Of a stretch of 64,000 bases of DNA, positions 35,583-38,063 are shown piece by piece; the stretch's first letter is position 1; each line of letters starts with the position of its first letter. The notes under the pieces are model-generated. The model made no database searches, was not told where the DNA came from, and saw nothing but the letters and a program-made list of their open reading frames with translations. The stretch lies in assembly GCF_058153355.1 (NCBI RefSeq), contig NZ_CM177019.1, one strand, 5' to 3'. A program made the position numbers and the translations under genes.

Positions 35583-36554
35583 CTAATATTTATATTCCTC
35601 CCACTGAGCACCATATCGATGCTTTAACAGTTCAACTTTAATTTCATCATATGTTTTAACTTTACTACCATCAATCTTAAGACGAATTTTATTCGAGGTG
35701 ATATCAACATAATTTCTATTTTCCCCACCCGCGGGGAAAAAATCAAACATAAAATTAGACATGTTTTGTTCTTTTTTCATGAGAGCTCCATATTCACACA
35801 TGTCATTTATATTTTGTATGTATGGAGCGCCCCCCTGACATGATGGATAATGAAAATCAATTATAATAAAAAGCGATTTATTGATACTCCTCTGAAAGAA
35901 CCACTTATTATTTACAATACGATAGGTTAAAGATTTAAATGTATACCAGTGACTTCCTGGAAGAAAAGAGTAAGCTTCATTAAGATTGACAGTAAATACC
36001 TTAGTTTCTCCAGAGGAAAGCTTTACCCATTCTGATTTTATATCACAATTATCGCCCATGCCAAAATAAAGCTCATCATTGGCATCATCCTCAAAAAAAT
36101 CACATATATTGGTTGCGGAAGGACGGAATTTCAGATAGAAACCACTTGTGGATATTAAAAAAGAATCCTCACATAAAGGAGAAAAAAAATAAGGCTCCGA
36201 TGTGTGTGAGGAGATAGGTAATAATCGTCTATGAATGAAATTTTCGCTCCCCCCCAAATTTGTAAAACTTATTTTTGCTAACACACGAGAGTCAATTTGC
36301 TTAACGGTTAATCTAACATCAACATCAAACATGTTACGATTTAGCAATTTTTCCTCGACTCCGTCAGTGTAATGTGATGACTCAAGTATATTGTCCTCAA
36401 GAGTCATCGAATTTAATTTTTGTTCAGAAACATATTGTGTAATAACCTCATCATTGCAGTATCCATGAAATGAAATAAACATTAGCACTGCAATCTTAAC
36501 TAATCTCAAAATACTTTTCAATATTGTATGCATTATTAAAAACCAGCGGGTCAT
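35583..36554 (-). CDS. Signal-peptide protein, paralogue of ORF 38219..39040 (candidate immunity protein 2)
   Basis: 323-aa ORF with N-terminal hydrophobic leader; shares motifs with 38219..39040 (ISFTN/ITFTN; AYxFxPG; Yx[19 protein letters not shown] near C-terminus). Confidence 0.5.
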   Translation of the reverse strand: MTRWFLIMHTILKSILRLVKIAVLMFISFHGYCNDEVITQYVSEQKLNSMTLEDNILESSHYTDGVEEKLLNRNMFDVDVRLTVKQIDSRVLAKISFTNLGGSENFIHRRLLPISSHTSEPYFFSPLCEDSFLISTSGFYLKFRPSATNICDFFEDDANDELYFGMGDNCDIKSEWVKLSSGETKVFTVNLNEAYSFLPGSHWYTFKSLTYRIVNNKWFFQRSINKSLFIIIDFHYPSCQGGAPYIQNINDMCEYGALMKKEQNMSNFMFDFFPAGGENRNYVDITSNKIRLKIDGSKVKTYDEIKVELLKHRYGAQWEEYKY

Positions 36555-36809
36555 GTTTTGATTTTAATTCTTTTGCATTGGCAATTTCTCTTTTTTTCCC
36601 AAATCGTTACTGCTTAATCCACCATAATACTGTTCTCCATCCCAGATAATAAAAAGGTGAGATAACTCATGGCATAATGTGGAGACTCGAGAGTTTTCTC
36701 CCGTTGGATTTTTACATGTGAAATTTTGTAAGATATCTATAGATATTCTGTCTCGATACTCTAACTTTAAAAGTTCAGCCTTCGACTTATTTTTATACTC
36801 ACTACTTTG

Positions 36810-37295
36810 TTATTGGGGCCGATTTAGATCTATATGAGTCGTCTGAGCAGCCGGTATACGGGCTGAGCCATTGACTAAATTGGTATAATTTTTAAAATTG
36901 CCATATATTAGTTGTACATTATCTTGCGTTCGAGTTTCAATGATCAAGCTATCACAAATCATGATCATTCTGTAAACCCCCTCTTTTATAAAACTATGTG
37001 CGTCAATATTCTTGGTTTGTGGAGTGAAGTTCCCATTATTATCTGACTTTTGACAAGGAGCATAGTGTTCCATTGTTATAATAGCATCACCTGGTAATCC
37101 AAATATATCTTCAAAATTTGTCTGATCTGCTGGTGTCCATGCTTCCAGATTTTTCGCTCTGATATTCAATACTCGCTTTGTTTCTTTCAAAGCAGGGGTT
37201 ATCATGTTGTAAAATTGATCAGTAACCTTTGCTTCTTTTTTACACACATTGCCTTTTTGAGTTACTCCTTGTGAACTTCCTTTGTTATTATTCAT
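36810..37295 (-). CDS. Truncated paralogue of the HEXXH protein (lacks HEXXH region)
   Basis: ORF 36810..37310; N-terminal ~110 aa align with 39064..39855 (QFYNMI/HFKIMI; IFGxxG; GVxRLMII/GVYRMIMI) but the ORF ends before any HEXXH motif. Confidence 0.45.
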   Translation of the reverse strand: MNNNKGSSQGVTQKGNVCKKEAKVTDQFYNMITPALKETKRVLNIRAKNLEAWTPADQTNFEDIFGLPGDAIITMEHYAPCQKSDNNGNFTPQTKNIDAHSFIKEGVYRMIMICDSLIIETRTQDNVQLIYGNFKNYTNLVNGSARIPAAQTTHIDLNRPQ

Positions 37296-37700
37296 AAACA
37301 CCGCCCTCAATCATATCTATACTTTGATGCAATAGCCTGACTTTTATCGTCTGCTCACTGTCAGTGATAAATATTTCCGTATACCCATCCTTATCCGTTT
37401 CCCCTCGCGCTTGTGTGCCGTCCTCAAAAAAGGCAATGTAGCGTGTTTCTGAATACGGTATCCCGTCATCGTCTGTAAAATGAAACTGGAGGGTGTATTT
37501 CTCAGGTTCATCCTTATCTTCATTGTCGTTCCCAGAATCATTTCCATCGCCACCACCGACCCCGCCATTGCCTTGCCCGCCCTCTGCACCACCATCTTTA
37601 TCACTACCTTCATCCGTCAGTGCCTCCAGCACGCCCGGTTGCAGTGTCGGTACCGGAGTCCCCGGACTACCCCCACCATTCAGATTTATCTTCGGCCCCC
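37288..37700 (-). pseudogene. VgrG C-terminal fragment (last ~135 codons only)
   Basis: ORF 37288..37632 encodes DEPEKYTLQFHFTDDDGIPYSETRYIAFFEDGTQ, near-identical to the C-terminus of the intact vgrG; nucleotide similarity extends to ~37700, where it abuts the H-repeat remnant. Confidence 0.6.
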
Positions 37701-37709
37701 AGGGAAAGA

Positions 37710-38063
37710 TTACGAAAGCCCGCTCCCCGCAAGGACTGACGCCAGATACTTTCTGTCCATGGCTGCTTTTCGCATCTTACGTCTTAACCCTGCCTTGAAT
37801 ACCTTATCATTCGTCAAAATATTAATAGCGATGTGCCGTATCCCTGAAAATAATTCTGCTGCATTTCCTCTTCTTATTTTGCAGTCGTCTTCATTCATTA
37901 CCACGTCCAGACGCCAGTGCAGCTTATTCTCCACGTGCCCGTGGTTTCGGATTGCTGTGGCGAACTTCTCTGCGGTTAAATCAGCAGAACTGATATAATA
38001 TCTGACCGTCATTTCTGGCTCTTTCTTTTGTTCTGCTATTATGGACCGAAAGGAGACTGCCAC
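37710..38063 (-). mobile_element. ISAs1-family (H-repeat) transposase, C-terminal fragment
   Basis: 117-aa ORF ending …[23 protein letters not shown]…, resembling ISAs1/H-repeat transposase C-termini; no N-terminal part present. Confidence 0.55.

What the first reader, a model, noticed from the sequence alone, without database searches (positions are those of the whole stretch)
35583..38063. Degenerate second copy of the module: VgrG C-terminal fragment, truncated effector paralogue and intact immunity paralogue, joined to an H-repeat transposase remnant
The last ~135 codons of a vgrG (near-identical C-terminus) start exactly where an ISAs1/H-repeat transposase 3' fragment ends (~37700). The next ORF shares the N-terminal ~110 aa of the HEXXH protein but lacks the HEXXH region. 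The following signal-peptide protein is a full-length paralogue of the upstream partner. A similar H-repeat 3' remnant lies just upstream of the intact vgrG. This looks like serial displacement of older cargo modules by H-repeat-associated recombination, leaving an orphan immunity gene. The start/stop overlap is similar in both copies (ATGGACGATAATAA vs ATGAATAATAA).
Basis: seen in the sequence. Interest (0 to 1): 0.6.

Follow-up and report, generated by a model that had tools for sequence, protein, structure and literature searches.

The report
Displaced T6SS cargo module, orphan immunity
This stretch of an E. coli chromosome is the remains of an older type VI secretion "spike, toxin, antidote" gene set that a newer set pushed aside: the spike gene is cut off at the end of an insertion-sequence remnant, the toxin gene is full length but killed by two point mutations, and only the antidote gene is intact, which is a well-understood way for bacteria to collect spare antidotes.

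Summary
All genes lie on the minus strand, at the E. coli RhsD site (ybbP..mnmH).

- **Module 1 (intact):** vgrG1, the M35-like effector E1 and the immunity gene I1.
- **IS remnant:** an internally deleted H-rpt/ISAs1 element follows module 1. Its right terminus (37699) directly abuts the last 136 codons of a second vgrG (37698-37288).
- **E2 is not truncated:** its HEXXH motif (HELSH, 36671-36657) is present. The gene is full length (37295-36496) but carries a TAC>TAA nonsense codon (36812-36810) and an A8>A7 frameshift (36597-36591). The intact 266-aa allele survives in three complete E. coli genomes and several draft assemblies.
- **I2 (36533-35583):** intact in all 17 sources examined.
- **History:** relatives in Enterobacter and Phytobacter have full-length vgrG-E2-I2. 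The E1-I1 cassette is nearly invariant between lineages whose module 2 differs by about 1.5-2%, so it arrived later.

Verdict: an ordinary displaced T6SS effector-immunity module with a recently decayed effector and a retained orphan immunity gene. It is a new member of a known kind. How the H-rpt element takes part is unresolved.

The parts
42535..42662 (-). Second H-rpt/ISAs1 3' remnant, upstream of vgrG1. It ends at the same element terminus as the first remnant.
   Evidence: 79-80% nt identity to the K-12 ydcC element and to 37698-37825. 62% aa identity over 39 residues.
39845..42250 (-). vgrG1: intact 801-aa T6SS spike gene, and a mosaic. Its 3' ~400 nt are 99-100% identical to the RhsE-locus allele, while its 5' 2 kb are only 65-85% identical.
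   Evidence: TIGR03361 at 588.9 bits. Identity profiles.
39064..39855 (-). E1: intact 263-aa M35-like (HEMSH) effector of the newer module.
   Evidence: Annotated as M35 family metalloendopeptidase in relatives. Pfam Aspzincin_M35 hit is weak (E=0.0045). Member of alignment A1.
38219..39040 (-). I1: 273-aa immunity partner of E1 with a signal-peptide-like N-terminus.
   Evidence: Position directly after E1. 28-31% identity to the immunity proteins of the E. coli PAR cluster.
37699..38188 (-). Internally deleted H-rpt (ISAs1 family) element: a 27-nt left-end piece (38188-38162) joined to the last 465 nt (38162-37698). The transposase fragment corresponds to YdcC aa 226-378.
   Evidence: 98% identity to the K-12 ydcC element. 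NF033564 at 121.5 bits, covering profile positions 202-314 only. tblastn results.
37288..37698 (-). vgrG2 3' fragment: the last 136 codons (end of the beta-helix, a Gly/Asp-rich linker and the C-terminal effector-specific tail). Relatives annotate a 114-aa GTG-initiated ORF here.
   Evidence: 62% identity to the VgrG1 C-terminus. 66% identity to the Enterobacter soli VgrG, with an identical last 15 residues. No Pfam or NCBIfam hit.
36496..37295 (-). E2 pseudogene: a full-length M35-like effector gene with a premature TAA at 36812-36810 (Tyr162 in relatives) and an A8>A7 frameshift at 36597-36591. HELSH lies at 36671-36657 and the GTxD-like motif (SSND) at 36623-36600.
35583..36533 (-). I2: intact 316-aa immunity paralogue with an N-terminal hydrophobic signal-like segment and two family-invariant cysteines. 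The start at 36533 (MHTIL...) is conserved in orthologues; the longer ORF from 36554 overlaps the end of E2.
   Evidence: 25% identity to I1. 48% to the Enterobacter soli partner. 32% to the validated immunity protein of E. coli PAR (E=5e-30). Intact in 17/17 sources. Alignment A2.
35407..35506 (-). Degenerate H-rpt left-end remnant following I2, in two pieces (35506-35453 and 35445-35407). It starts at the same H-rpt position as the piece after I1.
   Evidence: 84% and 90% identity to the K-12 ydcC element. Alignment. Repeat D10.

Best explanation
This is the displaced, older cargo module of a type VI secretion 'vgrG island' at the RhsD site (ybbP..mnmH) of an E. coli chromosome.

ANCESTRAL STATE (inferred). 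A complete vgrG2-E2-I2 operon, as still seen in Enterobacter soli and Phytobacter. VgrG2's C-terminal tail carried E2, a periplasm-acting M35/aspzincin-type zinc metallopeptidase. I2, a secreted periplasmic protein, neutralised it.

DISPLACEMENT. A newer cassette arrived: a vgrG 3' end, E1, I1 and an internally deleted H-rpt. The same cassette is common at the RhsE site.
- Its upstream side was joined by homologous recombination inside the conserved vgrG body.
- Its downstream side ends at the H-rpt terminus, which now abuts vgrG2 codon 675.
- This left vgrG2's last 136 codons, E2 and I2 downstream.

DECAY. E2 was displaced intact and is still intact in most relatives. In this lineage it acquired first an A8>A7 frameshift and then a Tyr>ochre mutation, so it is a pseudogene here. 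I2 stays intact and most likely serves as an orphan immunity gene against neighbours that still fire E2.

SHOWN: the anatomy, the homologies, the lesions, the fold, the relative ages and the comparison with related genomes.
INFERRED: the order of events at the H-rpt junction, whether I2 is expressed, and its protective function.
For: ANATOMY AND JUNCTIONS.

LOCUS IDENTITY: the site is RhsD. The same vgrG-E1-I1-deleted-H-rpt unit sits at the RhsE site in many E. coli, and its homology to the window stops exactly at the H-rpt end, 37699.

E2 IS FULL LENGTH WITH TWO LESIONS. The intact allele WP_001063571.1 is present in 3 complete genomes and several drafts. The frameshift is shared with L023, L024 and L026; the TAA occurs only in the window; I2 is intact in 17/17 sources.

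ANCESTRAL ARCHITECTURE: hcp-vgrG(789-804 aa)-E2-like-I2-like in Enterobacter soli and Phytobacter. The VgrG tail LLHQSIDMIEGGVYE co-varies with E2-type effectors.

NOT A LOCAL DUPLICATION: E1/E2 are 29% identical, against 60-65% between E2 and the Enterobacter/Phytobacter orthologues.

MODULE 1 IS YOUNGER:
- 1 difference in ~2850 nt (37353-40209) against ~1.5-2% divergence in module 2.
- dS is 0-0.007 for E1/I1 against 0.022-0.049 for E2/I2.
- vgrG1 is a mosaic.

FUNCTION:
- Invariant HExxH, GTxD-type Asp and NAYNIEKYF in alignment A1.
- E2 is 35% identical (E=9e-45) and I2 32% identical (E=5e-30) to the M35/immunity pair of E. coli PAR. That pair was shown to be toxic when expressed from the pET22b vector, and neutralised by co-expression of its immunity gene (PMC10673891).
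- I2 has dN/dS of 0.16-0.24.

PRECEDENT: the displacement model and retention of old immunity genes are described in PMC5361080.
Against: - There are no expression data. The promoter-like matches are no more frequent than in shuffled sequence (15 vs 12.1 +/- 3.8).
- I2's immunity role rests on synteny and 32% identity to a validated protein. Its structure could not be modelled (pLDDT 48.8).
- The dN/dS values rest on 16 or fewer substitutions per gene.
- The 17 sources are phylogenetically clustered, so '17/17 intact' is not 17 independent trials.
- Only 64 kb of the genome is visible, so an intact E2 elsewhere cannot be excluded.
- The shared H-rpt boundaries show no obvious terminal inverted repeat (by eye, from the end sequences; not searched for), and transposition of H-rpt has never been observed (PMC3032704). 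An IS-driven step is therefore unproven.
- The recently exchanged block runs 346 nt past the H-rpt end, so the present distribution owes much to plain homologous recombination.
- The A7 run could in principle be a homopolymer sequencing error. However, it recurs in three other assemblies, and the TAA is a substitution.
Confidence: 0.8

Rival explanations
1. Two complete modules first stood in tandem (vgrG1-E1-I1-H-rpt-vgrG2-E2-I2). An H-rpt/ISAs1 end then caused an adjacent deletion that removed the 5' 2 kb of vgrG2. This differs from insertion of a cassette into vgrG2 and is a variant of the same displacement story.
For: Tandem complete vgrG-E-I modules of this family exist in the E. coli PAR metV T6SS cluster. 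The junction lies exactly at the H-rpt terminus. In sister assemblies L023/L024/L026, a second, different ISAs1-family remnant has its right end 16 nt before the E2 ATG and the vgrG fragment is gone, which is a second independent deletion junction at an ISAs1 terminus.
Against: The H-rpt at the junction is internally deleted and encodes no complete transposase. No genome with the tandem intermediate at the RhsD site was found among 5,426 complete E. coli genomes. H-rpt transposition has not been observed (PMC3032704).
Confidence: 0.3
2. Module 2 is not a relic in the population. In relatives, the intact E2 is still expressed by read-through and loaded onto VgrG1, or is assisted by the 114-aa vgrG2 tail ORF acting as a free adaptor. 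The locus would then be a two-effector operon, and the window strain has simply lost one effector recently.
For: E2 is intact in 13 of 17 sources across two clades about 1.5-2% apart. The 8-nt start/stop overlap with the fragment ORF is kept. The C-terminal cores of the two VgrG tails are 78% identical. In E. coli PAR, a separately encoded C-terminal VgrG piece ('DUF2345') binds both VgrG and the M35 effector (PMC10673891). No terminator-like site lies between I1 and I2 on the minus strand.
Against: E2's dN/dS of 0.39 is weaker constraint than I2's 0.16. The last ~20 residues of the tail, which co-vary with effector type, differ between VgrG1 and the fragment (42% identity). The fragment lacks the beta-helix needed to join a VgrG trimer. 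E2 has been lost by mutation in one sub-lineage, and the fragment by IS-associated deletion in three assemblies. In other relatives it is E1 that is frameshifted (L020-22), which looks like drift rather than maintenance of both effectors.
Confidence: 0.15
3. The second copy arose by tandem duplication of the vgrG 3'-effector-immunity unit in place, followed by divergence.
For: The two units are in register at a 2563-nt spacing, with the same gene order and the same type of start/stop overlap.
Against: E1/E2 share 29% and I1/I2 share 25% amino-acid identity, while the vgrG tails share 62%. E2 and I2 are much closer to Enterobacter/Phytobacter proteins (60-65% and 48%) than to E1 and I1. The E1-I1 unit occurs by itself at another chromosomal site in many genomes.
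Confidence: 0.03
4. The fragment, the stop codon and the frameshift are assembly or sequencing artefacts of a single fused or intact gene set.
For: The frameshift lies in a homopolymer (A7 vs A8).
Against: The H-rpt/vgrG-fragment junction is identical in three complete genomes and at least seven draft assemblies that span it. The A7 allele recurs in three other assemblies. The nonsense change is a base substitution.
Confidence: 0.02

Closest known systems
Orphan immunity arrays made by sequential displacement of T6SS effector-immunity modules in Vibrio cholerae (Kirchberger et al. 2017, PMC5361080)
   Same: A newer effector-immunity module sits next to the spike gene and the older module is shifted 3'. 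The old immunity gene is retained. One junction lies in conserved spike-side sequence, and there is frequent homologous recombination and mosaicism.
   Different: Here the displaced effector was carried along intact and decays later by point mutation, rather than being replaced. A vgrG 3' fragment is left behind. The downstream junction is the terminus of an ISAs1/H-rpt remnant rather than an anonymous illegitimate joint.
Rhs elements of E. coli with downstream orphan C-terminal tips, immunity genes and H-rpt elements (e.g. K-12 RhsE: rhsE-ydcD-yncI-ydcC; PMC3032704; work by Hill and colleagues and by Jackson, Poole and Koskiniemi, recalled from memory)
   Same: The same chromosomal sites (RhsD, RhsE). 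The same H-rpt element, 98% identical to K-12 ydcC. The same logic of a conserved 5' part with exchangeable 3' toxin-plus-immunity parts and displaced 3' fragments.
   Different: The carrier gene is vgrG with a separate cargo effector, not an Rhs protein with a fused toxin. No Rhs sequence is present in the window.
VgrG / DUF2345 / M35 effector / immunity locus of E. coli PAR (AKO63_2953-2956; Commun Biol 2023, PMC10673891)
   Same: Homologous proteins: E2 is 35% identical to M35-PAR (E=9e-45), I2 is 32% identical to its immunity protein (E=5e-30), and the VgrG tails are 65% identical. Same gene order and overlapping starts. Toxicity and neutralisation were shown experimentally for that pair.
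   Different: The PAR modules sit inside the main metV T6SS cluster, each after a vgrG (the second annotated as frameshifted). Here the module has lost its vgrG and, in this strain, its effector. The E2/I2 alleles themselves are untested.
M35 (aspzincin) zinc metallopeptidases: peptidyl-Lys metalloendopeptidase GfMEP (1g12), AsaP1 (2x3a), deuterolysin (1eb6)
   Different: About 20% identity. It falls below Pfam PF14521 thresholds. There is no signal peptide or propeptide; instead it has an N-terminal two-helix extension and is delivered by T6SS. The substrate is unknown.
P. aeruginosa VgrG2b C-terminal metallopeptidase with periplasmic immunity protein PA0261 (Wood et al. 2019, PMC6899460)
   Same: A HEXXH metallopeptidase delivered on a VgrG that carries a TTR-like C-terminal domain. 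It acts in the periplasm, and its immunity protein needs a signal peptide and disulfide bonds. I2 likewise has a signal-like N-terminus and two invariant Cys.

Membership tests
T6SS spike protein VgrG/TssI (for the fragment 37698-37288) | gp27/gp44-like N-terminal and gp5-like OB/beta-helix core (TIGR03361/TIGR01646) | tested here: not met
   Only the last 136 codons are present. There is no NCBIfam or Pfam hit, whereas intact vgrG1 scores 588.9 bits. It is a gene fragment, not a VgrG.
T6SS spike protein VgrG/TssI (for the fragment 37698-37288) | Homology of the remaining part to the C-terminal extension of bona fide VgrGs | tested here: met
   62% identity to VgrG1 aa 675-804 (E=3e-44). 66% identity to the Enterobacter soli VgrG C-terminus, with an identical 15-residue tail.
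M35 / aspzincin metallopeptidase (E2) | HExxH zinc-binding/catalytic motif | tested here: met
   HELSH is encoded at 36671-36657. H209, E210 and H213 are invariant in 23 family members.
M35 / aspzincin metallopeptidase (E2) | Third zinc ligand: Asp in a GTxD-type motif downstream of HExxH | tested here: met
   D231 is invariant within GG(M/L)(G/S)(T/S)xD; the sequence is SSND in E2 and GTDD in many members. Metal binding itself was not tested.
M35 / aspzincin metallopeptidase (E2) | Aspzincin fold | tested here: met
M35 / aspzincin metallopeptidase (E2) | Match to the curated family profile (Pfam PF14521) above threshold | tested here: not met
   E2 has no hit. E1 has i-Evalue 0.0045, score 17.9. 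No NCBIfam model matches. It is a divergent branch, recognised by fold and motifs only.
M35 / aspzincin metallopeptidase (E2) | Uninterrupted reading frame in this genome | tested here: not met
   TAA at 36812-36810 and an A8>A7 frameshift at 36597-36591. It is a pseudogene here.
VgrG-dependent M35-type T6SS effector-immunity pair (type: E. coli PAR AKO63_2955/2956) | Sequence homology of both partners to the validated pair | tested here: met
   E2 35% identity, E=9e-45. I2 32% identity, E=5e-30.
VgrG-dependent M35-type T6SS effector-immunity pair (type: E. coli PAR AKO63_2955/2956) | Effector gene directly after a vgrG with overlapping stop/start, followed by the immunity gene | tested here: met
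   8-nt overlap with the end of the vgrG fragment, and I2 follows. The same layout after full-length vgrG is seen.
VgrG-dependent M35-type T6SS effector-immunity pair (type: E. coli PAR AKO63_2955/2956) | Periplasmic toxicity of the effector and specific neutralisation by the partner | not testable with these tools
   Shown only for the PAR homologues (PMC10673891). It requires expression of a repaired E2 with and without I2.
ISAs1-family insertion sequence (H-rpt) | ISAs1-type DDE transposase gene | tested here: inconclusive
   NF033564 scores 121.5 bits (cut-off 70) but covers only profile positions 202-314 of 314, equivalent to YdcC aa 226-378. It is a true family sequence but an incomplete gene.
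ISAs1-family insertion sequence (H-rpt) | Both element ends present | tested here: met
   A left-end piece, 26/27 identical to K-12 (38188-38162), and the right end shared by four contexts. About 800 nt are missing internally. Terminal inverted repeats were not identified.
Orphan T6SS immunity gene (I2) | Intact immunity ORF whose cognate effector is absent or inactive in the same genome | tested here: inconclusive
   I2 is intact and the adjacent E2 is inactivated. No other E2 copy lies within the 64-kb window, but the rest of the genome is not visible.
Orphan T6SS immunity gene (I2) | Protection against the effector delivered by other strains | not testable with these tools
   Needs competition assays. 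Indirect support only: dN/dS of 0.16-0.24 and 17/17 intact copies.

The most novel reading that the evidence does not exclude
H-rpt/ISAs1 elements may not be bystanders. They may be the functional right-hand boundary of a mobile 'vgrG-3'-effector-immunity-H-rpt' cassette, with their termini directing where cassettes are joined or where older modules are trimmed.

Evidence that leaves this open:
- The same internally deleted H-rpt closes the E1-I1 cassette at two chromosomal sites (RhsE and RhsD).
- Its terminus is the joint with the truncated resident vgrG.
- An H-rpt left end follows I2, starting at the same element position.
- A third H-rpt terminus lies upstream of vgrG1.
- In sister strains, a different ISAs1-family terminus forms an independent deletion joint 16 nt before E2.

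If true, this would give a mechanism for the decades-old, unexplained association between H-rpt and Rhs/T6SS cargo loci.
Probability: 0.15. Interest if true: 0.6.

Novelty: new member of a known kind. Interest (0 to 1): 0.3.

Why it matters
For T6SS biology this is a clean worked example rather than a surprise. It shows, in E. coli vgrG islands, the same 'new module in, old module shifted downstream, old antidote kept' process known from Vibrio and from Rhs loci.

Three details are useful:
- The displaced toxin gene can persist intact for a long time. It then decays by ordinary point mutations, and here both steps are caught.
- In sister lineages it is the newer toxin, E1, that is frameshifted instead.
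- The recombination joints can be mapped to within tens of bases.

It also places the little-studied E2/I2 proteins in a small family of M35-fold T6SS toxins (133 representatives among 1.84 billion proteins) that has one experimentally validated member.

The recurrent ISAs1/H-rpt termini at the joints are the only element that could lead somewhere new.

Tried and rejected
1. **Curated family searches.** NCBIfam and Pfam searches of E1, E2, I1, I2 and the vgrG fragment found no family above threshold, only a weak Aspzincin_M35 hit for E1.
2. **PDB sequence search.** It gave nothing for E1 and only E=0.68 to AsaP1 for E2. The fold had to be established through an AF2 model instead.
3. **Structure of I2.** The AF2 model built on 12 sequences was too poor (pLDDT 48.8) for any fold comparison, so none was run. 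Profile searches added few relatives.
4. **Intact ancestor in E. coli.** A search for an intact vgrG2-E2-I2 among complete E. coli genomes found module 2 in only 3 of 5,426 genomes, always with the same truncated vgrG.
5. **Promoter/terminator scan.** Promoter-like matches around I2 were no more frequent than in shuffled sequence (15 vs 12.1 +/- 3.8), so the scan says nothing about expression.
6. **Downstream of the H-rpt at the RhsE locus.** No similarity to vgrG, E, I or Rhs was found there, so the 'IS end abuts a displaced module' pattern is not seen at that site.
7. **Rejected readings.** Local duplication, assembly artefact, and 'truncated effector lacking HEXXH' (see the rival explanations).
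9. **Phase variation at the A8 run.** Considered. The run is short and the window also carries a nonsense codon, so this was not pursued.
10. **Locating the PAR locus.** Finding the E. coli PAR M35 locus by position took four region fetches.

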